Positions 55,248 to 63,914 of a stretch of 64,000 nt of DNA are shown here, piece by piece. The translations under genes and the position numbers were made by a program. This stretch comes from an uncultured Gammaproteobacteria bacterium. Lineage in GTDB: Bacteria > Patescibacteriota > Patescibacteriia > Magasanikbacterales > UBA922. Every line of letters starts with the position of its first letter. Positions within the stretch are counted from its first letter, which is position 1. The DNA is taken from NCBI GenBank assembly GCA_964519725.1, contig CAZFKS010000001.1, positions 119,270 through 183,269 on the forward strand, in the 5' to 3' direction. The notes beneath the pieces are model-generated. The model saw only the letters and a list, made by a program, of their open reading frames with translations. It had not been told where the DNA came from and did no database searches.

Positions 55248-56123
55248 TCAATCTTCTTTCTTTCCCAAAATCACATAACCCTGCGACTCAATCACACGGC
55301 CAAGAGTGTACATTTCCAGCAAACAATAAAATTCTGCTACTGCGAGTGAATATGGTTTGGTTTTCAATTTTAATTGGTATAACCAGCGATTTAAAGTGCG
55401 CAAAATTTTAAACCGCGGCGCAGTTTTTTGTAAAACTGGATAGAGCTCGTCCGGATGCACTAAAAATTTTGCCCAGACCGCCGAATACATTCTTTTCACT
55501 GTAAAACCCGCGCCCTCAAGTAGGGCTCGCAACTCTTTTTTGGAATACAAAGAAATGTGATACTCAGCGTGCGGATCCAAATTCACACCACGGCGCTGCA
55601 AATAATTACGGATAAATGCGTGCTTCCCCAATTTTGACTCACTAAACATGGCCAGTCTACCTCCTGGTTTTAGGACCCGATTTAATTCCTTGAGCCAGGC
55701 CGGAACATTGGCTACATGACCAAGCACATCAGAGGTATGAATCGCATCAAAATAATTATCTGGAAATGGTAAATGAATCCCATCGTAAAGCTCCACGTAC
55801 GCATCCACTCCATACTCTTTGAACCGTTCAGTCGCAATATCAACCTCAAGCTGAACCACGTCTAAACCTACGGCTTCCTGAATTTTTGGGAACAAACTTT
55901 TAAGCTCAATTAGTGCCGACCCAGTCCCAGCCCCAGCATCCAAAACCCTGGCCCCTTTGGGTAGGCTGCTTTTCATATATCGATACAGGGAAAACTTTTT
56001 TGGGTAAAAAAGCAGTTTAACCCAGGATTTTAGGCCGGGCCGGGTCACGGCTGGCCGGGCATCCCAGACCTCTGCCCCCTCACTATCCTTGATCCCCCAC
56101 CCCTTTGTTTGACTCATTTCCAT
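55248..56123 (-). CDS. class I SAM-dependent methyltransferase
   Basis: Motif I VLDAGAGTGSALIEL. 291 aa. Confidence 0.75.
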   Translation of the reverse strand: MEMSQTKGWGIKDSEGAEVWDARPAVTRPGLKSWVKLLFYPKKFSLYRYMKSSLPKGARVLDAGAGTGSALIELKSLFPKIQEAVGLDVVQLEVDIATERFKEYGVDAYVELYDGIHLPFPDNYFDAIHTSDVLGHVANVPAWLKELNRVLKPGGRLAMFSESKLGKHAFIRNYLQRRGVNLDPHAEYHISLYSKKELRALLEGAGFTVKRMYSAVWAKFLVHPDELYPVLQKTAPRFKILRTLNRWLYQLKLKTKPYSLAVAEFYCLLEMYTLGRVIESQGYVILGKKED

Positions 56124-56345: not shown

Positions 56346-57872
56346 ATGTCTATTGTATTAATCCTCAGTCTCCTCATTGGCGGGGCACTGGTGGGCGTCC
56401 TCATCGGTTATTTGGTGAGACAACAAATTGCCCAATCAAAAGCCAATTCAGCCGAAGTGCGGGCGGAAAAAATCTTAGCCGAAGCCAAAAATAAAGAACA
56501 AGAAGTTCTGCTTCAAGCCAAGGAAAAAGCCATCAAAGTCATTGATGATGCCAAAAAAGAAGAAGAAACCCGGCGTCAAGAACTCAAGCAAATTCAACAG
56601 CGTTTAGAACAACGCGAAACTTTGTTTGACCAAAAATTAATGGATTTTGAAGAAAACAAAATTAAACTCGAACAAAAAGTGGAAGAAGTTAAACAAGTTA
56701 AACAAAAAATTGAAGAGATCAAAGCTGAAGCCGTTAAAAAACTGGAAACTATTTCTGGTTATTCAAAAGACCAGGCTGTTGAAGAAATTTTTAAACGCGT
56801 GGAACAAGACAGTAAGGCTGACCTGTTTACCCGGATTGGTAAATTAGAAAAAGACAATGGTGAACAGTTTGAAAATGAAGCCAAACGCATTGTCATTGAC
56901 TCAATGCAGCGCTGTGCCGCTAACCACGCCAATGAAAATACCGGTACGATTGTTAACTTACCAAGTGATGAAATGAAGGGCCGGATTATTGGTAAAGATG
57001 GCCGCAATATTAAAACAATTGAAAAATTAACTGGCTGTGAGGTGTTAATTGATGATACCCCTGACATGCTCGTGGTATCTGGTTTTTCATTAATTCGCCG
57101 CCGCGTCGCGCAACTGGCCATTGAAAAATTAATTAAAGATGGCCGCATTCAACCAGCCAAAATTGAAGAGTATGTAGAAATGGCCAAAAAAGAATTGGCC
57201 GTGGACATTAAAAAAGCTGGTGATGAAGCCGTGTATGAAATGGGTATTACCGGCCTTGATCCAAAATTAATTTCAATTATTGGTCGCCTCAAATACCGCA
57301 CTTCATATGGTCAAAACGTTTTGAACCACTGTACTGAGGTTGGTTATTTGGCTGGCATGATTGCCGAAGAACTTGGCATGGATCGCGCCGCAGCCCGTAA
57401 AGCTGGTTTTTTTCATGACATTGGTAAATCAATTGACCACGAAACTCAGGGTGCCCACACTGAGTTAGGTTACAAAATCCTCAAAAAATTTGGTCTTGAT
57501 GAAGACACAGCCCAAGCCGCACTCACCCACCACGATACTAATCCCCCATTACTTTTGACTAAGATCGTAATGGCGGCTGATGCGATTTCTGCCTCACGCA
57601 TTGGTGCGCGCCGCGACACTCACGAAGAATACATTGCTCGTTTGGAAGAATTAGAAAAAGTAGCGAGTGATTTCCCAGGGATTGATAAAGTGTACGCCAT
57701 TCAAGCTGGCCGCGAAGTTCGTGTTTTTGTTCGCCCAGATGAAATTGATGATTACGGCGCTTATAACTTGGCCAAAGACATTGCTCGCAAAATTGAACAA
57801 GAACTTACTTACCCAGGTGAAATTAAGGTCAACGTGATCCGTGAAAACCGGGTCATTGAATACGCCAAATAA
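56346..57872 (+). CDS. rny: ribonuclease Y
   Basis: N-terminal TM helix, long coiled coil, KH domain GRIIGKDGRNIKTIE, HD domain HHDIGK. 508 aa. Confidence 0.9.
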   Translation: MSIVLILSLLIGGALVGVLIGYLVRQQIAQSKANSAEVRAEKILAEAKNKEQEVLLQAKEKAIKVIDDAKKEEETRRQELKQIQQRLEQRETLFDQKLMDFEENKIKLEQKVEEVKQVKQKIEEIKAEAVKKLETISGYSKDQAVEEIFKRVEQDSKADLFTRIGKLEKDNGEQFENEAKRIVIDSMQRCAANHANENTGTIVNLPSDEMKGRIIGKDGRNIKTIEKLTGCEVLIDDTPDMLVVSGFSLIRRRVAQLAIEKLIKDGRIQPAKIEEYVEMAKKELAVDIKKAGDEAVYEMGITGLDPKLISIIGRLKYRTSYGQNVLNHCTEVGYLAGMIAEELGMDRAAARKAGFFHDIGKSIDHETQGAHTELGYKILKKFGLDEDTAQAALTHHDTNPPLLLTKIVMAADAISASRIGARRDTHEEYIARLEELEKVASDFPGIDKVYAIQAGREVRVFVRPDEIDDYGAYNLAKDIARKIEQELTYPGEIKVNVIRENRVIEYAK

Positions 57873-57939: not shown

Positions 57940-58242
57940 ATGAATAAAGCCATGCTGGCCGAACAAATCGCTCACAAGGTCGGTGTTTCTAAAAAAGAAG
58001 CTGAGGCTATGCTTGAAGCTTTAGTTGACATCACCATCAGTGAACTTAAAGCTAATAATGAAGTGACCATTTCTGGTTTTGGTGCGTTCAGTGCTAAAAC
58101 TCGCGCTGGTCGTGTTGGTGTGAATCCACAGAACCCAACTGAAAAAATTCAAATTCCACCAGTGACTGTACCAAAATTCAAAGCTGGTAAAAGTTTGAAA
58201 GATGCACTCAAAAGTAAAAGTGAAGTAAAACCACAAGCTTAA
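57940..58242 (+). CDS. hup: DNA-binding protein HU
   Basis: Beta-arm RAGRVGVNPQNPTEKIQIPP and N-terminal helices typical of HU/IHF. 100 aa. Confidence 0.9.
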   Translation: MNKAMLAEQIAHKVGVSKKEAEAMLEALVDITISELKANNEVTISGFGAFSAKTRAGRVGVNPQNPTEKIQIPPVTVPKFKAGKSLKDALKSKSEVKPQA

Positions 58243-58256
58243 AAATTTCTTCAATA

Positions 58257-58287
58257 AAAAATCCGGCTTAATGCCGGATTTTTTGTG
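58257..58287. terminator. bidirectional hairpin terminator between hup (+) and the tRNA pair (-)
   Basis: aaaaaatccggc-ttaat-gccggatttttt. Perfect 6-bp GC stem with A-run and T-run flanks. Confidence 0.55.
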
Positions 58288-58360
58288 TCAGAGGGGAGAG
58301 TCGAACTCCCGACCTGAGGGTTATGAATCCTCCGCTCTTACCAGACTGAGCTACTCTGAC
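58286..58360 (-). tRNA. tRNA-Met (anticodon CAT; elongator type, could alternatively be lysidine-modified tRNA-Ile2)
   Basis: Reverse complement folds as cloverleaf: acceptor GTCAGAG/CTCTGAC, D-stem GCTC/GAGC, anticodon loop TTCATAA, T-arm GGGAG-TTCGACT-CTCCC. Lacks the initiator features (3 GC pairs in anticodon stem, 1:72 mismatch). Confidence 0.8.
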
Positions 58361-58375
58361 ATATGAGCAACCTCG

Positions 58376-58447
58376 TAGCGCCAAGGAGAATTGAACTCCT
58401 GTTTGGTGGATGAGAACCACCTGTCCTAGCCACTAGACGATGACGCC
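58376..58447 (-). tRNA. tRNA-Glu (anticodon CTC)
   Basis: Reverse complement: acceptor GGCGTCA/TGGCGCT (two GU pairs), D-stem GTCT/GGAC, anticodon stem GGTGG/CCACC with loop TTCTCAT, T-arm AGGAG-TTCAATT-CTCCT, 4-nt variable loop. Confidence 0.65.
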
Positions 58448-58509: not shown

Positions 58510-60285
58510 TTAGCGCGCTGGTGGCACCTGGAAATATTCCAGGAGAAACTTGGACAAATCCCCAAAGACGGGCGCTGCGGTGCTTTCAGCATAGGCTGGT
58601 TCTGGTTTTTCGTATTTTACGATCATGACGTATTTAGGGTCTTGAGCTGGGGCAAAGCCAATAAATGAGTGGTTGTAAGTTTTAGTATATCCACCTGGCC
58701 CAGCGATTTCCGCTGTTCCTGATTTACCAGCCACTTGGTATCCAGTCACCCGCGCGCGACCGCTGTAACCTTTATCAACGGTGGCTACCAAAATATTTCC
58801 AATTTGACCCGCCGCTTTACGATTTAAAACCGTGCCAATTGGTTTTGGTTTAGTCACTTCAATATGACCGTCAGCAAATTGTTTTTCTTTGATAATGTAT
58901 GGTTTCATCAGAGTACCACCATTAGCAATTACCGAAAAAGCTGTGGCTGCTTGTAGTGGTGTCACTGTTAAACCCTGACCAAATGACGCTGTGGCTGTGT
59001 AACAATCTAATTTATTGCCCTTATTTTGGGTGAGCGAATCAATGGTTCCACTCACTTCAGTATCTAATTCAATTCCAGTTTCTACACCAAAACCAAACCG
59101 TTTAACATATTGTAAAAATTTTTGTTTACCTAAACTTTCCACTACGTGTACCATCCCAGTGTTAATTGAATTTTGAATCACCCCGGTCATGGTCTGATCA
59201 CCAAATGCTTTATTGCCCGCATTTTGAATTGGATGCTGACAAATTCCATCGCGGCGGCCAGTGTCAAAAAATGGTGTGTTTGGCGTGACTGCACCCTCGT
59301 TCAAAGCCGCGGCCATGGTAATTGGTTTAAAAATTGACCCTGGTTCGTACGGTGTAAAAATCGCGGAATTATTAAAAATATTGGCGTCAGTAACTTTGTT
59401 ATATTCATTTGGATTAAAATCTGGCAGTGAACACATGGCTAAAATGGCCCCCGATTTTGGTTCCATAATTACGAGCGACGCACTCGTGGCTTTATAATCA
59501 ATCATCCCCTGCCGCAAACGTTCACAAGCCTTAAATTGAATGGTCCGATCAATGGTCAAAACCAAATCTGCACCATCTTCAGCCGGTTTTAAAAGACCCT
59601 TATTTGACTCAATCCAACTACCACTAGCTGAACGCAGCCCCTCAATAAAACCACCTGATCCAGCCAAATTTTTCTGCCAGTAGCCTTCAATTCCGTATCG
59701 GCCCAGTGCATTACCTTTATCATCTTTTCCCACAAACCCAATCACCGTGGCCGCCAAATTTCCCTCAGGATAATTGCGGTGCGGCTCGCGCACAAAATAA
59801 ATGCCTGGCAAATCTAGGGCTTTAATGGTTTCCATTTTGCGCTGGTCTAAACGCTGTTCAATTGGTTCGTACGGATCAGTCCGTTTATTTAGTTGTTTGG
59901 TAATAGTTTCGCGGCGCTCAGGCGCAAAAGTAAATTGTTTATCGAGCCCATCCAAAACTTGGCGCGCCATTTCTTCAGTTTTAATTTCGCGTGTGTCAGC
60001 GTACAGGGTGTACACATCATCATTAAGAGCAATTGGATAGGGCGTACCAGTGCGTGCATCTGACAAAAAAATTTGACCGCGTTTTGGTAGCAAAGTTGAA
60101 CTTGATTCATGCGTATTAGCCGCCAGTGCCGTGTAAAAACCATGTTCCAAAACCATGAGAAAAAATAACCGCGCAATAATAATTCCAATTCCGCCAAACA
60201 AAAACCAAGTGGCCACTTTAATGCGCTCCACTGAAGCAAAATCAGCACGAGGATTAGATAAACGGTTAGAGTAATTCACAGGCAA
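58510..60285 (-). CDS. penicillin-binding protein 2 / FtsI-type transpeptidase
   Basis: N-terminal TM anchor. SxxK GSIFKP, SxN, KTG motif AGKSGTAE. 591 aa. Confidence 0.85.
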   Translation of the reverse strand: MPVNYSNRLSNPRADFASVERIKVATWFLFGGIGIIIARLFFLMVLEHGFYTALAANTHESSSTLLPKRGQIFLSDARTGTPYPIALNDDVYTLYADTREIKTEEMARQVLDGLDKQFTFAPERRETITKQLNKRTDPYEPIEQRLDQRKMETIKALDLPGIYFVREPHRNYPEGNLAATVIGFVGKDDKGNALGRYGIEGYWQKNLAGSGGFIEGLRSASGSWIESNKGLLKPAEDGADLVLTIDRTIQFKACERLRQGMIDYKATSASLVIMEPKSGAILAMCSLPDFNPNEYNKVTDANIFNNSAIFTPYEPGSIFKPITMAAALNEGAVTPNTPFFDTGRRDGICQHPIQNAGNKAFGDQTMTGVIQNSINTGMVHVVESLGKQKFLQYVKRFGFGVETGIELDTEVSGTIDSLTQNKGNKLDCYTATASFGQGLTVTPLQAATAFSVIANGGTLMKPYIIKEKQFADGHIEVTKPKPIGTVLNRKAAGQIGNILVATVDKGYSGRARVTGYQVAGKSGTAEIAGPGGYTKTYNHSFIGFAPAQDPKYVMIVKYEKPEPAYAESTAAPVFGDLSKFLLEYFQVPPAR

Positions 60286-60310
60286 TAGGAGCTATAGTAT
60301 ACCACAAAAC

Positions 60311-60339
60311 TTGACGTGGATTTTAGCCAAGAGTAATAT
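60311..60339 (+). promoter_or_regulatory. sigma70-like promoter TTGACG-17-TAATAT upstream of a GC-rich structured island
   Basis: ttgacg tggattttagccaagag taatat. Confidence 0.35.
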
Positions 60340-60381
60340 ATATTCCTGTTGTCACACCCCCTAAGGGGGACAGGAGGTCAC

Positions 60382-60480
60382 ATGTGGGGCACGCTTAGCG
60401 TTCGAGAGAAAGTACTCGTAGTCACGGTTTCGCTGTTGGTCTTCGGACCCATGGCGATCGGACTGTCGATCCTCGGATGA
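60382..60480 (+). CDS. 32-aa hydrophobic micro-ORF with a strong Shine-Dalgarno (AGGAGG), inside a GC-rich hairpin-dense island
   Basis: ATG 60382 to TGA 60478-60480 gives MWGTLSVREKVLVVTVSLLVFGPMAIGLSILG. SD aggagg 4 nt upstream, partly inside a stem (cctgt...acagg). Followed by a 41-nt hairpin (60486-60526). Confidence 0.3.
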   Translation: MWGTLSVREKVLVVTVSLLVFGPMAIGLSILG

Positions 60481-60536
60481 ACAACCGTCCGCTGGCCCAG
60501 GGATTTCCCTGCGGCCGTGCGGACGGACCAAACAAA

Positions 60537-60848
60537 CTAGAGCTCTTGCTTAAGTTTTTCCCATTGTTTCACAATCAAGGAAACAATCAGTGAGACCGTG
60601 CTGGTCGCCAGACCAATCTCACGAGCATATTCTTTGGTAAATTGTTCAACTTTTTTCGCAAAATCTGATTTTTTCATTTTTTTCCAAGCCTCAGATTTCA
60701 GTAAATCTTTTTTAACCCGTTCGTAAACTACTGCCGCGTGACCAATCGCTTCGTCACGAACAGCTTTACCTTGTTTAGTTAAATTTAACCAAGCCAATCC
60801 AGCGCCAAGCAGGCCACCAAATAATAGACCACGTTTGAAATTTCCCAT
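60537..60848 (-). CDS. YtxH-like (DUF948) small membrane-anchored protein
   Basis: N-terminal Gly-zipper helix LLFGGLLGAGLAWL followed by charged helical region. 103 aa. Confidence 0.5.
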   Translation of the reverse strand: MGNFKRGLLFGGLLGAGLAWLNLTKQGKAVRDEAIGHAAVVYERVKKDLLKSEAWKKMKKSDFAKKVEQFTKEYAREIGLATSTVSLIVSLIVKQWEKLKQEL

Positions 60849-60858
60849 ATGAGTAGAG

Positions 60859-62055
60859 TTAAGATTTAGTTCCAGCTACTCTATTATATAGCGCCTCGAG
60901 CTTTTGGACAATTAATTCCCAGGCATACTCAGTCTCAGCCACAGCGCGAGCCGTAGTTTTCCAAGCCGCCCGGTCAACGCCTGGGCTAAAATATTCCAGC
61001 AGGGTTTCAGCCAAGTTTTGCGGGTCATTTGACTTGACCACAGTACCAGCCTTGGCCGCCACCATACGCACCCCTGGGAGATCACTCGCAATGACTGGCA
61101 CACCACTGGCATAGGCCTCGAGGAGCACCATACCAAAGGCCTCACCCTGCGTTGTAGACGGTAAAACTAATAAATCAGCACTTTGGTAATAGCGAGGTAA
61201 GTCAGCGTGTTCAACGCGACCCACAAATTTTACCAGACTTTCAATTCCCAAAATTTTTGCGCGTTCTTCATACTTGGCGCGCAGTTCCCCGTCCCCCACC
61301 AAAATCGCTTGCACTGGCTGACCAGCGACTTTAGCAATCGCCAGTGCTTCTAGCAAAACTGGAATGCCTTTGAAAAAATGCGCCGCATCCATTCCGCCCA
61401 CAAACAAAACCGTTGGTAAATCAGCTTGGAGTCCAATTTCAATGGTCAGGGCCAAACTTGGTTCACCTGGTTTAAACCGATTAATATCCACCCCGAACGG
61501 CAGTTCAACCCAGCGCGCTGATTTTTGCAAAAAATGATTCCGAGCATCACTTACTTTTACATAATCAAACGAACTGGCAATAATTAAATCCGCGACATCC
61601 AAAATTTTCGGCAAATAATATTTAGCGTACAATTTAAAAATCAAACCCTGCCAACCAGGCGCGCGCGTATCCATGTGGTACGTGATCACCAGTGGTTTGG
61701 TGGGATTTTTTAATTTCCATTTCCGTACCAATCCGGCCGTACCAAAAAATGGATAGTGTAAGTGGACTAAATCAAACCCATCAAGCTCTTTGGCCAAGCC
61801 TGATAACCGCGCCGCATTACCATATGTTACTGATGGTTCGAGTCGGCGCGCAAAATCAATCTGTTTTTGCAATTGCGGTGCGTGCGTTTCTTCTGGCACT
61901 TCAGACGCTGATTTTAATTCTTTTTCCTCGTAATAATCAGGTGTAAACACCACCACTTCGTGACGTTTAGTCAGCTCAGCCGCAGTTTCAAACACCACCG
62001 TGCCCATACCACTGTAATAAGGCGGATACCGACAAACGATGTGCGCAATTTTCAT
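60859..62055 (-). CDS. glycosyltransferase family 4 (GT-B)
   Basis: C-terminal EAFGMVLLEAYASGVPVIASD (E-x7-E-like GT4 motif). 398 aa. Confidence 0.85.
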   Translation of the reverse strand: MKIAHIVCRYPPYYSGMGTVVFETAAELTKRHEVVVFTPDYYEEKELKSASEVPEETHAPQLQKQIDFARRLEPSVTYGNAARLSGLAKELDGFDLVHLHYPFFGTAGLVRKWKLKNPTKPLVITYHMDTRAPGWQGLIFKLYAKYYLPKILDVADLIIASSFDYVKVSDARNHFLQKSARWVELPFGVDINRFKPGEPSLALTIEIGLQADLPTVLFVGGMDAAHFFKGIPVLLEALAIAKVAGQPVQAILVGDGELRAKYEERAKILGIESLVKFVGRVEHADLPRYYQSADLLVLPSTTQGEAFGMVLLEAYASGVPVIASDLPGVRMVAAKAGTVVKSNDPQNLAETLLEYFSPGVDRAAWKTTARAVAETEYAWELIVQKLEALYNRVAGTKS

Positions 62056-62930
62056 ATCTTTGTAGTTTTAGAAACAATATAATACACGCCAATGAGCAGG
62101 AAAATTATACCAAAAAATTGCTGATTTGAGATAGTTTCTAAACCGAGCGCAGTTAAGGTCAAAATACTAAACAAAGGAAAGGTCAGCCCAATTGGCACAG
62201 CCTGGCTAATGTCGAGACGTTTAATTCCATTAAACCAAAGCAGCTTACTAATCGCGAGACACAGACCACCAGCCGCCAGCAAGGTTGGCCAATAATTACT
62301 GACTGTTTCCGAATAATTTGCGCCTGGTGAAAAAATTAAAGACAAGACAAATAAAATTGGAACACCGAGCATTAACCGGCTCACCAGCACAGTTTCTGGA
62401 CTTAATTCTTTGAGTAATCGTTTCGAAATAATATTGCCAAATGGATATGAGGCCGTACTAAAAATAATTACAATATCGCCCCAAGAAAAATTATTAAAAC
62501 CCTTGAATAAAACTAAAAATGAACCAAGTAAAACCGAGGTAGTGCCAATCACTTTAGCTGAAGTAATTTTTTCTCCATAAAATCTGGCGACTGGAACCGT
62601 AAACAACAATTCAGACAATAACAACACTGAGGCATTTACCCCCGAAGTGAGGCGTGCACCTAAATAAAACAAAGTCATTGGCACCACCACGATCAAAAAC
62701 GCCGCGAGCAGTTGATCTTTATACAAATGCGTTTTTTTAAAACCACTAAAATCACCGCGCCAAGCAAAAACAACGAGTGCCGTGAGCAGAGCCACGCTGT
62801 GAGTCAGGGTGGCAATCACTAATCCAGGCGCGGTTTGCGTTACCCGCTGGATTAAAATCGGATGAAAAGACCACAGCCAAGTACCAAGCAAAATTACACT
62901 AGTACCGATTTTAGTATTTCGGTCGAGCAT
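62052..62930 (-). CDS. EamA/DMT-family transporter (10 TM helices)
   Basis: 292 aa, two repeated 5-TM halves. 4-bp overlap with the GT4 gene. Confidence 0.6.
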   Translation of the reverse strand: MLDRNTKIGTSVILLGTWLWSFHPILIQRVTQTAPGLVIATLTHSVALLTALVVFAWRGDFSGFKKTHLYKDQLLAAFLIVVVPMTLFYLGARLTSGVNASVLLLSELLFTVPVARFYGEKITSAKVIGTTSVLLGSFLVLFKGFNNFSWGDIVIIFSTASYPFGNIISKRLLKELSPETVLVSRLMLGVPILFVLSLIFSPGANYSETVSNYWPTLLAAGGLCLAISKLLWFNGIKRLDISQAVPIGLTFPLFSILTLTALGLETISNQQFFGIIFLLIGVYYIVSKTTKI

Positions 62931-62932
62931 AA

Positions 62933-63274
62933 TTATTTTTTCTCTAGCGCTTTACTGCGCACCACTTTGGTGAGGTCGCGCTGCAGAGCTTCTAGTTTTA
63001 CGGTGAGGCGGAAAATGGTCAGGAGCAAAAAAGCGAGCGCTGAGTAAATAATTAAATCCACCCCGCGTCCAATTCCCAAAATATCAGCGGCAGTTTGGGC
63101 GCTATTTGGGTACCACGCAATTACGACCATACCCAACCAAATAAGTAGCCACCACAATGTGCTGCGAAGACTCAGGAGTTTTTGTTCGCGGCGTTGCCAC
63201 ACTAAAAACGCCCCAGAAAAAGCAATGATGGTAAAAACAATTTTGAAAAACACCATATTATAAAAATTTACCAA
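62933..63274 (-). CDS. DUF2304-like small membrane protein (glycosyltransferase-associated)
   Basis: 113 aa with 3 TM helices and a charged C-terminal helix. Sits directly after the GT2 gene, as DUF2304 proteins typically do. Confidence 0.45.
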   Translation of the reverse strand: MVNFYNMVFFKIVFTIIAFSGAFLVWQRREQKLLSLRSTLWWLLIWLGMVVIAWYPNSAQTAADILGIGRGVDLIIYSALAFLLLTIFRLTVKLEALQRDLTKVVRSKALEKK

Positions 63275-63914
63275 ACAGTAAATCGCGAATAATTTTTACA
63301 CCACCACCCATTCCCTGTCCATACTCATGGTAGGTCACGGTAATTGGTAATTCGCGGTAATTTAATTTATGACGCGCAATTAATTGGGGAATTTCTGTGG
63401 CATGAGCCATACGATCTTGGTTTAATTTTAAAACTGACAGGGCACGCGCATTAAAAATTCGGAAACCATTGTGTGCGTCAGATAACCGGGCGGCGCCAAA
63501 TATTTTTTCAATGAACCGTGCCAGTGGCAAAATAATTTTACGTTTAAACCATGGCACAGTGCCAGTTGTTCCCAAAAAACGCGAGCCTAAAATAATATCC
63601 GCACCAGTTGTTTGCAATAGTTCAATACCTTTCTCCACATCCGCCACACTAAATTGCCCATCAGCATCAAAGTGCACTACTACTTGCGCCCCTTGTTCAC
63701 GCGCGTACTCGTGCCCAGTTTCTAGAGCCGCACCCTGTCCCCGATTTAATTCATGGACCAAAACCGTGGCCCCAGCTGCCTTGGCCACAGCCGCTGTTTC
63801 ATCACTAGACCCGTCGTCAACCACAACTACCTCAGTGACCACTGACAAAAGCCCAGTAATTACTGAGCTGACGCGCGCGGCTTCATTATAGGCTGGGACA
63901 ATGGCCAGAATCAT
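63258..63914 (-). CDS. glycosyltransferase family 2 (DPM1/GtrB-like polyprenyl-phosphate glycosyltransferase)
   Basis: ILAIVPAYNEA, VVVVDDGSSDET, DAD (FDADGQ) motifs. 218 aa. Confidence 0.85.
   Translation of the reverse strand: MILAIVPAYNEAARVSSVITGLLSVVTEVVVVDDGSSDETAAVAKAAGATVLVHELNRGQGAALETGHEYAREQGAQVVVHFDADGQFSVADVEKGIELLQTTGADIILGSRFLGTTGTVPWFKRKIILPLARFIEKIFGAARLSDAHNGFRIFNARALSVLKLNQDRMAHATEIPQLIARHKLNYRELPITVTYHEYGQGMGGGVKIIRDLLFGKFL

What the first reader, a model, noticed from the sequence alone, without database searches (positions are those of the whole stretch)
60286..60536. GC-rich, hairpin-dense 250-bp island with the only strong Shine-Dalgarno in the window, preceding a 32-aa hydrophobic micro-ORF
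Between the divergent PBP2 and YtxH-like genes lies a segment much richer in GC than its flanks. It has a TTGACG-17-TAATAT promoter, multiple stable hairpins (ccccc-taa-ggggg, ggtc-ttcg-gacc UUCG tetraloop, gatcg...cgatc, 8-bp ccgtccgc/gcggacgg) and AGGAGG 4 nt before an ATG. The ATG opens MWGTLSVREKVLVVTVSLLVFGPMAIGLSILG, which has one TM helix. The SD is partly buried in a stem. This is the architecture of type I toxin mRNAs (Hok/TisB/Ldr-like). Alternatively the whole element is a structured ncRNA and the ORF is incidental.
Basis: seen in the sequence. Interest (0 to 1): 0.55.

Follow-up and report, generated by a model that had tools for sequence, protein, structure and literature searches.

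The report
Unannotated small membrane-peptide gene, hairpin-rich mRNA
The GC-rich island is a real, never-annotated mini-gene in a Magasanikbacteria (CPR) genome that encodes a fast-evolving ~30-residue membrane peptide on an unusually folded mRNA; it looks like a type I toxin gene, but no antitoxin was found and close relatives do without it.

Summary

The island (60311-60526, + strand) is a self-contained transcription unit:
- promoter TTGACG-17-TAATAT
- 5-bp GC hairpin abutting the SD
- AGGAGG, then ATG 4 nt later
- 32-codon ORF
- 17-bp 3' hairpin

Four syntenic relatives carry the same unit. In all five:
- The ORF stays open from an SD-proximal start. The peptides (27-39 aa) share W-x-E-L-N-x-x-Q-K, 11-12 hydrophobic residues, [G/A]-P-[M/A] and a hydrophobic tail.
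- The 3' hairpin has five compensatory pairs, and its G·U pairs place it on the ORF strand.

Substitutions in the one unsaturated pair (L001/L030) look coding: 11/5/14 by codon position, pN/pS 0.40.

There is no Rfam, Pfam, NCBIfam or PADLOC membership, and the peptide is absent from 1.8 billion protein representatives.

The unit is accessory: two close relatives lack it. It also diverges far faster than its flanks and keeps GC3 at 0.58-0.78 in genomes of 42-44% GC (window host GC3 0.37).

Best reading: a new small membrane-peptide gene on a structure-selected mRNA. Type I toxin remains a live but unproven sub-hypothesis, because no antisense promoter was found and SD occlusion is inconsistent.

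The parts
60311..60339 (+). Sigma-70-type promoter of the small gene: -35 TTGACG (60311-60316), 17-nt spacer, -10 TAATAT (60334-60339). The inferred TSS is near 60346.
   Evidence: Found by the promoter scan. The same TTGACN-17-TANTAT site at the same relative position is the only promoter-like site lying inside the element in the four relatives; L022's scanned region also holds two weaker same-strand sites outside it. -35 TTGAC and most of the -10 are invariant in alignment A3.
60357..60369 (+). 5' UTR hairpin CCCCC-UAA-GGGGG, ending 2 nt before the SD.
   Evidence: Read in the sequence. A 4-5 bp GC hairpin ends 0-2 nt before the SD in 5 of 5 elements, with different stem sequences: CCCCC/GGGGG, GCCC/GGGC, GGCC/GGCC, UGGCC/GGCCA and CGGCC/GGCCG. 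Each occurs in 0.06-1.5% of shuffles.
60372..60377 (+). Shine-Dalgarno AGGAGG, 4 nt before the ATG.
   Evidence: An SD-like purine block lies 4-7 nt before the start codon in all five elements.
60382..60480 (+). Small ORF of 32 codons plus TGA, giving MWGTLSVREKVLVVTVSLLVFGPMAIGLSILG. It has a polar N-terminus of about 10 aa followed by a C-terminal transmembrane-type helix of about 22 aa.
   Evidence: ORF. It is open in frame in 5 of 5 relatives, with a shared motif. L001 versus L030 gives differences by codon position of 11/5/14 and pN/pS of 0.40, with no stops in this frame only. GC3 is 0.667 against 0.37 for host genes.
60399..60479 (+). Long imperfect hairpin inside the ORF, running from 3 codons before the invariant Lys codon to the stop codon. 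Its apex is GGUC-UUCG-GACC at 60438-60449.
   Evidence: MFE folds. An analogous domain is present in 4 of 5 single-sequence folds. ORF-only z-scores are -1.5 to -2.3 in all five. There is no column-wise consensus on the codon alignment, so this part is only weakly supported.
60485..60526 (+). 3' UTR hairpin: invariant 8-bp base CCGUCCGC/GCGGACGG, an internal loop, a 9-bp variable upper stem and a GAUNNC-type loop. It starts 4 nt after the stop codon.
   Evidence: 17 pairs, 98.8% of cells paired, 5 pairs with changes on both sides, 0 of 500 shuffles reach the covariation score, and slid controls pair at 37-50%. Four G·U cells would be A·C mismatches on the other strand, which puts the function on the + strand RNA.
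60296..60304 (-). Context: extended -10 (TGGTATACT on the - strand) of the PBP2 promoter, back-to-back with the small gene's -35.
   Evidence: Read in the sequence. The 'tatagtataccacaaaac' block is also kept in the element-less relative L023. The promoter role is inferred.
60537..60848 (-). Context: ytxH-like gene (103 aa), convergent with the small gene. Its stop codon lies 10 nt from the 3' hairpin.
   Evidence: Homologues carry PF12732 YtxH.
58510..60285 (-). Context: PBP2/FtsI-type transpeptidase, transcribed divergently from the small gene. By comparison with relatives, the likely start is GTG at 60279.
   Evidence: PBP_dimer and Transpeptidase domains are recorded in relatives. N-termini are compared.

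Best explanation
The island is a stand-alone, unannotated small gene. A near-consensus promoter drives a transcript of about 185 nt. In order, the transcript has a short GC hairpin directly before a strong SD, a 32-codon ORF and a 17-bp 3' hairpin. Relatives add a small GCGC-loop-GCGC-U7 terminator.

The ORF is translated into a peptide of about 30 residues. Its polar N-terminus (W-x-E-L-N-x-x-Q-K) is inferred to stay cytoplasmic, and its C-terminal 20-22 hydrophobic residues, with a [G/A]-P-[M/A] kink, are inferred to span the membrane.

The RNA is independently selected for G+C-rich secondary structure. The 5' and 3' hairpins most likely protect the short mRNA from 5' and 3' exonucleolytic decay and define its 3' end; this role is inferred.

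The gene is accessory. It was gained in one Magasanikbacteria subclade, lost at least twice, recombines between lineages and diverges much faster than its neighbours.

Shown: the anatomy, conservation of the frame, the coding-type substitution pattern, hairpin covariation and strand, the patchy distribution and the lack of known homologues. Inferred: transcription, translation, membrane insertion, the stabiliser role of the hairpins and the physiological role.
For: - Five syntenic copies share the same order of parts.
- The ORF is open from an SD-proximal start in 5 of 5. K10 and P23 are invariant, and W-x-ELN-xx-QK is shared by several.
- L001 versus L030 gives codon-position differences of 11/5/14. 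In the ORF frame pS is 0.62 and pN 0.25 (Fisher p = 0.007). The other frames have stops or pN at or above pS.
- The 3' hairpin has 5 compensatory pairs, and its G·U pairs are compatible only with the ORF strand.
- The 5' hairpin is retained with different stems.
- Whole-transcript z-scores run from -2.6 to -5.3, and 0 of 200 shuffles match in any of the five.
- GC3 is 0.58-0.78 although synonymous sites are saturated, against a host GC3 of 0.37±0.05.
- The sense promoter is the only promoter-like site inside each element.
- There is no Rfam match even at E up to 10.
Against: - Only five copies are available, and two of them are close relatives.
- There is no expression or translation data.
- The peptide is short and hydrophobic, so conservation of hydrophobicity is weak evidence on its own.
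- Gene callers never reported the ORF.
- The stabiliser role of the hairpins is inferred from general knowledge of bacterial mRNA decay and was not tested.
- The invariance of the 8-bp hairpin base, while everything around it varies, is not explained by a pure stability role.
- The window copy lacks the U-tract terminator that the relatives have.
Confidence: 0.55

Rival explanations
1. It is a type I toxin gene. The peptide damages the membrane when made. The folded mRNA limits translation. An antisense RNA, most plausibly the convergent ytxH transcript running into or through the 3' hairpin or the whole element, pairs with the mRNA and triggers its decay, as in the 3'-overlapping Bacillus systems txpA/RatA and bsrG/SR4.
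For: - The peptide is small, with a single hydrophobic helix.
- The mRNA is strongly structured, including the coding region.
- The SD is partly paired in 4 of 5 copies, with P(unpaired) 0.15-0.49.
- The distribution is patchy, with at least two losses among close relatives.
- Divergence is fast and the alleles are mosaic.
- The gene is embedded antisense between two co-directional genes that are only 54-70 nt apart in element-less relatives, so read-through antisense transcription is plausible.
Against: - No promoter-like site was found on the antisense strand inside any of the five elements.
- The SD is open in L021 (P(unpaired) 0.78), and no conserved anti-SD was found.
- A near-consensus promoter plus AGGAGG suggests high constitutive expression.
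- No toxin family in Pfam, NCBIfam or PADLOC matches.
- The 64-kb window and the related loci hold a single copy each.
- No literature precedent was found in Patescibacteria.
Confidence: 0.28
2. It is a structured regulatory RNA (an sRNA, or a dual-function sRNA like SR1 or RNAIII) whose main activity is at the RNA level. The ORF is then secondary or incidental.
For: - It is a stand-alone transcript of about 190 nt with its own promoter and terminator, and it is strongly folded.
- The most conserved nucleotides are in the 3' hairpin base, not in the ORF.
- GC3 selection points to RNA-level constraint.
Against: - The reading frame, the SD spacing and the coding-type substitution pattern are all conserved.
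- No conserved single-stranded seed is evident.
- No Rfam family matches.
- It is dispensable in close relatives.
Confidence: 0.12
3. It is a non-functional remnant of inserted foreign, higher-GC DNA, and its ORF and hairpins are fortuitous.
For: - GC is far above the host level.
- Presence and absence vary between close relatives.
Against: - The architecture is maintained across lineages whose synonymous sites are saturated.
- The hairpins show compensatory changes.
- High GC3 has not decayed toward host composition.
- No similar DNA was found in phage or plasmid collections.
Confidence: 0.05

Closest known systems
Type I toxin mRNAs with 3'-overlapping antitoxins (Bacillus subtilis txpA/RatA, bsrG/SR4), and more generally Hok, Ldr, Ibs, ShoB and TisB
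   Same: - A peptide under 40 aa dominated by one hydrophobic helix. Like Ibs and ShoB, it ends hydrophobic.
- Its own promoter and a highly structured mRNA, including the coding region.
- A strain-variable, intergenic location.
- A convergent neighbour whose transcript could overlap the 3' end.
   Different: - No dedicated antisense promoter was found.
- There is no consistent SD sequestration.
- There is no sequence membership in any known toxin family.
- Only a single copy is seen.
- Toxicity is unknown.
Comparisons with the named systems rest on my own knowledge of them.
Non-toxic bacterial small membrane proteins encoded by sORFs (for example E. coli KdpF, CydX, AcrZ, MgtS, YohP)
   Same: - About 30 aa with a single transmembrane helix.
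- Missed by annotation.
- Strong ribosome-binding site.
- Lies next to membrane or cell-envelope genes (PBP2, YtxH, glycosyltransferases).
   Different: - Those proteins are usually co-transcribed with, or conserved alongside, a partner complex. This one is antisense to its neighbours, dispensable in close relatives, evolves about 10-fold faster (dN) than its flanks, and sits on an mRNA selected for GC-rich structure.
- The only family matches were sub-threshold: YniD at E = 0.016 for one peptide, and TatA.
Dual-function sRNAs (B. subtilis SR1/SR1P, S. aureus RNAIII/hld, E. coli SgrS/SgrT)
   Same: A compact, structured, independently transcribed RNA of about 200 nt that also carries a small ORF.
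   Different: No conserved unpaired seed region or target is known, and there is no Rfam match.
TatA/TatE N-terminal helix
   Same: The window peptide's 'LLVFGP' resembles the TatA TM-hinge motif (Pfam PF02416 E = 0.017; NCBIfam NF011430 E = 0.0035; both far below their cut-offs).
   Different: There is no amphipathic helix after the hinge, the peptide is half the length, and the other four family members give no hit. I treat this as a chance resemblance between transmembrane helices.

Membership tests
Type I toxin-antitoxin system | Small (under about 60 aa) hydrophobic peptide with a predicted transmembrane helix | tested here: met
   The peptides are 27-39 aa with 20-22 consecutive hydrophobic residues. 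The helix call is made from the sequence; no dedicated TM predictor was run.
Type I toxin-antitoxin system | An antisense or partly complementary antitoxin RNA with its own promoter | tested here: not met
   The consensus promoter scan finds no antisense-strand site inside any of the five elements. The test has low sensitivity, and read-through from ytxH could still supply an antisense RNA.
Type I toxin-antitoxin system | An mRNA fold that keeps the ribosome-binding site inaccessible | tested here: inconclusive
   Mean P(unpaired) of the SD is 0.33, 0.15, 0.49, 0.78 and 0.32 in the five transcripts. The partner of the SD differs between copies.
Type I toxin-antitoxin system | Toxicity of the peptide on overexpression | not testable with these tools
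   This needs an inducible-expression experiment.
Known type I toxin sequence families (Hok, Ldr, Fst, Ibs, TisB and others, as held in Pfam, NCBIfam and PADLOC) | Profile match above the curated cut-off | tested here: not met
   No toxin family appears even at E up to 10.
sORF-encoded small membrane proteins (generic class) | Conserved reading frame with a coding-type substitution pattern | tested here: met
   The frame is open in 5 of 5 copies. Codon-position differences are 11/5/14, and pN/pS is 0.40 with no stops in frame +0 only.
sORF-encoded small membrane proteins (generic class) | Ribosome-binding site at a functional distance from the start codon | tested here: met
   AGGAGG or a purine-rich SD lies 4-7 nt upstream of ATG or GTG in 5 of 5 copies.
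sORF-encoded small membrane proteins (generic class) | Demonstrated translation and membrane localisation | not testable with these tools
   This needs Ribo-seq, tagging or mass spectrometry.
Any Rfam RNA family | Covariance-model match at or near the gathering score | tested here: not met
   The gathering-threshold scan of the window finds only two tRNAs elsewhere. The permissive scan of 60200-60620 gives only a chance miRNA-like hit on the hairpin (23 bits against a gathering score of 90) and one other chance hit.
TatA/TatB/TatE | N-terminal TM helix, hinge and amphipathic helix, scoring above the cut-off | tested here: not met
   14.8 bits against a cut-off of 21 (Pfam), and 16.8 against 62 (NCBIfam). 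Only 1 of the 5 peptides hits, and there is no amphipathic helix.

The most novel reading that the evidence does not exclude
This is the first type I toxin-like module described in the Candidate Phyla Radiation. A hypervariable membrane-active peptide is carried on a structure-locked mRNA, inserted antisense between ytxH and PBP2. It is controlled not by a dedicated sRNA but by collision or duplex formation with the read-through cell-envelope operon transcript. Peptide production and PBP2 expression would then be reciprocally coupled.
Probability: 0.15. Interest if true: 0.65.

Novelty: new member of a known kind. Interest (0 to 1): 0.4.

Why it matters
CPR/Patescibacteria genomes are tiny and poorly annotated, and their small proteome is essentially unexplored. 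This is a concrete, comparatively supported example of a gene that standard gene calling misses: it has no entry among 1.8 billion protein representatives.

It combines a coding constraint with an RNA-structure constraint, and it turns over rapidly next to the cell-wall synthesis genes. If the peptide proves membrane-toxic, it would extend type I toxin-antitoxin biology to the CPR. If it is benign, it is a lineage-specific membrane accessory factor.

Either way, it gives a defined target for metatranscriptomics and heterologous-expression tests: promoter, start codon, peptide and hairpins.

Tried and rejected
1. Rfam, at gathering threshold on the whole window and permissively on 60200-60620, gave no relevant family. 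That rules out 6S, SRP, tmRNA, RNase P and known riboswitches or leaders. A core RNA is also unlikely because close relatives lack the element.

2. The metagenome DNA-pattern scan for the 3' hairpin (CCGTCCGCNNGCNCNNNGATN{10,16}GCGGNCG) was wasted. The hits were in contigs of about 50-78% GC, mostly 60-78%, and none resembled the element. The same pattern in viral contigs gave 6 chance hits. The pattern was too GC-biased, so true CPR copies may have been crowded out.

3. The peptide profile against 5.8 billion proteins gave no hit.

4. Pfam, NCBIfam and PADLOC gave only sub-threshold matches: TatA, DUF6814 and YniD. I rejected these as generic similarity between transmembrane helices.

5. blastn of the element against phage and plasmid collections gave no match, so there is no sign of a known mobile-element origin.

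6. A search for more copies of the peptide family in the window and in all related loci, with an HMM and a regex, found only the syntenic copy in each.

7. A consensus structure for the ORF-internal hairpin was sought on a codon alignment. RNAalifold finds none, so that hairpin is reported only as a recurrent single-sequence feature.

8. A conserved anti-SD or 5'-3' long-range pairing was looked for. Only lineage-specific short pairings were seen.

9. A leader-peptide or attenuator reading is rejected, because there is no downstream gene on the + strand; the next + strand sequence is antisense to ytxH.

Full report
**1. What is at the coordinates**

Reading 59800-61000 and listing ORFs shows a 251-nt gap between two genes that both lie on the minus strand. 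One is a PBP2/FtsI-type transpeptidase (58510-60285). The other is a 103-aa YtxH-like protein (60537-60848).

- a promoter-like site TTGACG-17-TAATAT at 60311-60339 on the + strand
- ccccc-taa-ggggg at 60357-60369
- AGGAGG at 60372-60377, 4 nt before the ATG at 60382
- a 32-codon ORF ending at 60480
- ggtc-ttcg-gacc at 60438-60449
- a long hairpin with the base CCGTCCGC/GCGGACGG at 60485-60526

The 150-nt windows centred here are the GC maximum of the whole 64-kb window (0.607, against mean 0.42, sd 0.056). The + strand RNA folds at -91.3 kcal/mol with z = -4.77, and none of 200 dinucleotide shuffles is as stable. The - strand gives z = -3.54.

AGGAGG occurs ten times in the window. It is placed before a start codon only here and at 55665(-).

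**2. Known RNA families**

cmscan against Rfam 15 at gathering thresholds finds only two tRNAs, at 58286-58447. A permissive scan of 60200-60620 gives only a 23-bit miRNA-like hit on the hairpin (gathering score 90) and one other chance hit. No described RNA family accounts for the region.

**3. Relatives**

A PBP2-based scan of species-representative genomes places the window among Candidatus Magasanikbacteria of the CPR. The best hits are 74% and 73% identical. YtxH homologues and their contigs gave the comparative set.

The same element, in the same slot and orientation, is present in L001, L021, L022 and L030. In the other contigs:
- It is absent from L023 and L029, which have a 60-70 nt spacer. 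L029's YtxH is 93% identical to that of element-bearing L021.
- It is absent from L024-L026, which have a 54-nt spacer.
- In L027 and L028 the slot holds an antisense tRNA-Pro(CGG) gene with its own promoter. The sequence is cut off in L031.

On a YtxH tree the carriers and non-carriers interleave. The simplest history is one gain in a subclade followed by at least two losses. The element is therefore dispensable.

**4. Shared anatomy**

All five copies have the same parts in the same order:
- TTGACN-17-TANTAT
- a 4-5 bp GC hairpin ending 0-2 nt before a purine-rich SD
- a start codon 4-7 nt after the SD
- an ORF of 27-39 codons
- a stop codon 4-7 nt before the CCGTCCGC hairpin
- in the four relatives only, a GCGC-loop-GCGC-T6/7 terminator 15-20 nt further on

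The window copy lacks that terminator and abuts the ytxH stop codon instead.

The sense promoter is the only promoter-like site inside any of the elements, and none lies on the antisense strand.

**5. Is the ORF coding?**

The five peptides are:

| Copy | Peptide |
|---|---|
| window | MWGTLSVREKVLVVTVSLLVFGPMAIGLSILG |
| L030 | MWCELNVQQKAAAIYAFASAIAPMFMVIFA |
| L001 | (fM)RCKMNTQQKAVVILSLATAIGPMFIVLFT (GTG start) |
| L022 | MKELNSLEKTVLAVVLILVCGPMLLFI |
| L021 | MSVSFGETWSELNLGQKLALCCTCAFVALAPAVIGILFG |

They align with an invariant Lys and Pro and a common plan. That plan is a polar N-terminus (W-x-E-L-N-x-x-Q-K), 11-12 hydrophobic residues, [G/A]-P-[M/A], and 5-8 hydrophobic residues to the C-terminus.

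L001 and L030 are the only pair not saturated at synonymous sites. Their 30 differences fall 11/5/14 on codon positions 1/2/3. In the ORF frame pS is 0.62 and pN 0.25 (ratio 0.40; Fisher p = 0.007) with no stop codons. The other sense frames give ratios of 0.91 and 1.53 and contain stops.

This is a modest but frame-specific coding signal. Together with the fixed SD-to-start geometry in 5 of 5 copies, it makes an incidental ORF unlikely.

The peptide has no match above any curated cut-off in Pfam, NCBIfam or PADLOC. The sub-threshold hits were TatA, DUF6814 and YniD. It has no relative among 5.8 billion clustered proteins or 1.84 billion representatives. It has evidently never been gene-called, including on an identical Logan contig.

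**6. Is the RNA structure selected?**

Yes, independently of coding.

*3' hairpin.* It has 17 pairs with 98.8% of cells paired. Five pairs change on both sides, 0 of 500 shuffles reach the covariation score, and slid controls pair at only 37-50%. Four G·U cells in three pairs would be A·C mismatches on the other strand, so the hairpin acts in the + strand RNA, which is the small mRNA. Its 8-bp base is essentially invariant while the upper stem covaries.

*5' hairpin.* It keeps its position but not its sequence. Each version occurs in 0.06-1.5% of shuffles.

*Whole transcripts.* z-scores are -4.8, -5.3, -2.6, -3.1 and -4.1.

*ORFs alone.* z-scores run from -1.5 to -2.3 in all five. In four of five, a long imperfect hairpin runs from just before the Lys codon to the stop codon. 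In three, a 4-bp stem with a UNCG tetraloop sits near codons 18-21. RNAalifold finds no column-wise consensus there.

*Composition.* GC3 of the ORF is 0.67 in the window and 0.58-0.78 in relatives. Host genes have 0.37±0.05, and only 0.3% of 33-codon host windows reach 0.667. Synonymous sites between lineages are saturated, so this G+C is being maintained rather than inherited from a recent transfer.

**7. Evolutionary behaviour**

L001 and L030 are 87-100% identical through PBP2, the promoter region, ytxH and the glycosyltransferase gene. Identity drops to 53-80% exactly over the transcribed element.

| Gene (L001 vs L030) | dN | dS |
|---|---|---|
| small ORF | 0.31 | 1.3 |
| flanks (PBP2 N-terminus, ytxH) | 0.02-0.03 | 0.37-0.39 |

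L030's 3' hairpin interior is identical to that of L021, not to that of its near-twin L001. YtxH and PBP2 N-terminal identities also give conflicting relationships for L021. The element therefore sits at a recombination junction, and its alleles are exchanged between lineages.

**8. Mechanism**

*Most likely (about 0.55).* It is an accessory small gene. Its product is a single-pass membrane peptide, with an inferred N-in orientation from the Lys before the helix. Its short mRNA is protected and delimited by a 5' hairpin next to a strong RBS and by a very stable 3' hairpin. The role of the hairpins is inferred from general knowledge of 5'- and 3'-exonucleolytic mRNA decay in bacteria. An RNase Y gene lies at 56346-57872.

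*Type I toxin reading (about 0.28).* This fits the peptide type, the structured mRNA, the patchiness, the fast evolution and the antisense embedding between genes that are probably co-transcribed where the element is absent. It lacks its defining partner, because no antisense promoter was found. SD occlusion is inconsistent, with P(unpaired) from 0.15 to 0.78. No toxin family matches. A full-text search found no paper combining 'type I toxin' and 'Patescibacteria'.

*RNA-centred (dual-function sRNA) reading (about 0.12).* This is kept alive by the invariant hairpin base.

*Functionless remnant (about 0.05).* This is contradicted by the covariation and the maintained GC3.

**9. Verdict**

The finding is real and is more than a curiosity of composition. 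It is a new, unannotated family of a known kind: a small hydrophobic-peptide gene on a structured mRNA, in a lineage where such genes have not been described. Membership in the type I toxin-antitoxin class is not established.

Interest is moderate (0.4). It would rise if toxicity or antisense control were shown.

Limits of this analysis:
- Only five copies are available.
- There are no expression data.

Noticed in passing
L027 2813-2888 (-), L028 2813-2888 (-); cut off at the contig end in L031: In more distant Magasanikbacteria the same ytxH-PBP2 spacer holds a tRNA-Pro(CGG) gene. It is also antisense to the flanking genes and has its own TTGACT...TATAAT promoter and a hairpin-rich leader of about 100 nt. 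The slot seems to attract small, strongly transcribed antisense genes repeatedly.
   Followed up: partly
L001/L030/L021/L022 versus window: ytxH and the first 122 codons of PBP2: Relationships conflict between the two genes. YtxH of L021 is 86-88% identical to L001 and L030, but its PBP2 N-terminus is only 57-58% identical to theirs and 84% identical to L022. A recombination breakpoint therefore lies in or next to the element.
   Followed up: partly
window 60526-60545, compared with L001 1195-1215, L030, L021 and L022: All four relatives have a small GCGC-tetraloop-GCGC-T6/7 terminator between the big hairpin and the ytxH stop codon. The window copy lacks it, so the 17-bp hairpin lies 10 nt from the ytxH stop. 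Without a U-tract, that hairpin may have to serve both convergent transcripts.
   Followed up: no
window 60277-60304 (-): PBP2 appears to have its own extended -10 promoter (TGGTATACT), conserved in element-less relatives. By alignment with relatives (VNYS...), its start is probably GTG at 60279 rather than the TTG at 60285 listed mechanically. No SD is visible, and the 5' UTR is very short.
   Followed up: no
window 58286-58360 and 58376-58447 (-): Two tRNA genes lie directly downstream of PBP2 (Rfam 64.8 and 56.9 bits). The syntenic pair in L027 is tRNA-Glu(CTC) and tRNA-Met(CAT).
   Followed up: no
window 56346-57872 (+) and 57940-58242 (+): An RNase Y-like protein (N-terminal TM, KH and HD motifs by eye) and an HU-like DNA-binding protein lie convergent with the PBP2 operon. 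RNase Y is relevant to how hairpin-protected mRNAs would be degraded in this organism.
   Followed up: no
L159 (Logan SRR11567520 contig), equal to window 60294-63848: An independent assembly is 100% identical to the window over 3555 nt and breaks at 60294, inside the back-to-back promoter region. No gene was called for the micro-ORF there.
   Followed up: yes
window 60438-60449; the equivalent ORF positions in L001 and L030: A 4-bp stem capped by a UNCG tetraloop sits at about codons 18-21 of the ORF in three of the five copies: GGUC-UUCG-GACC, UCGC-UACG-GCGA and UCGC-UUCG-GCGA. The L001/L030 loop difference is also the Thr/Ser difference in the peptide.
   Followed up: partly
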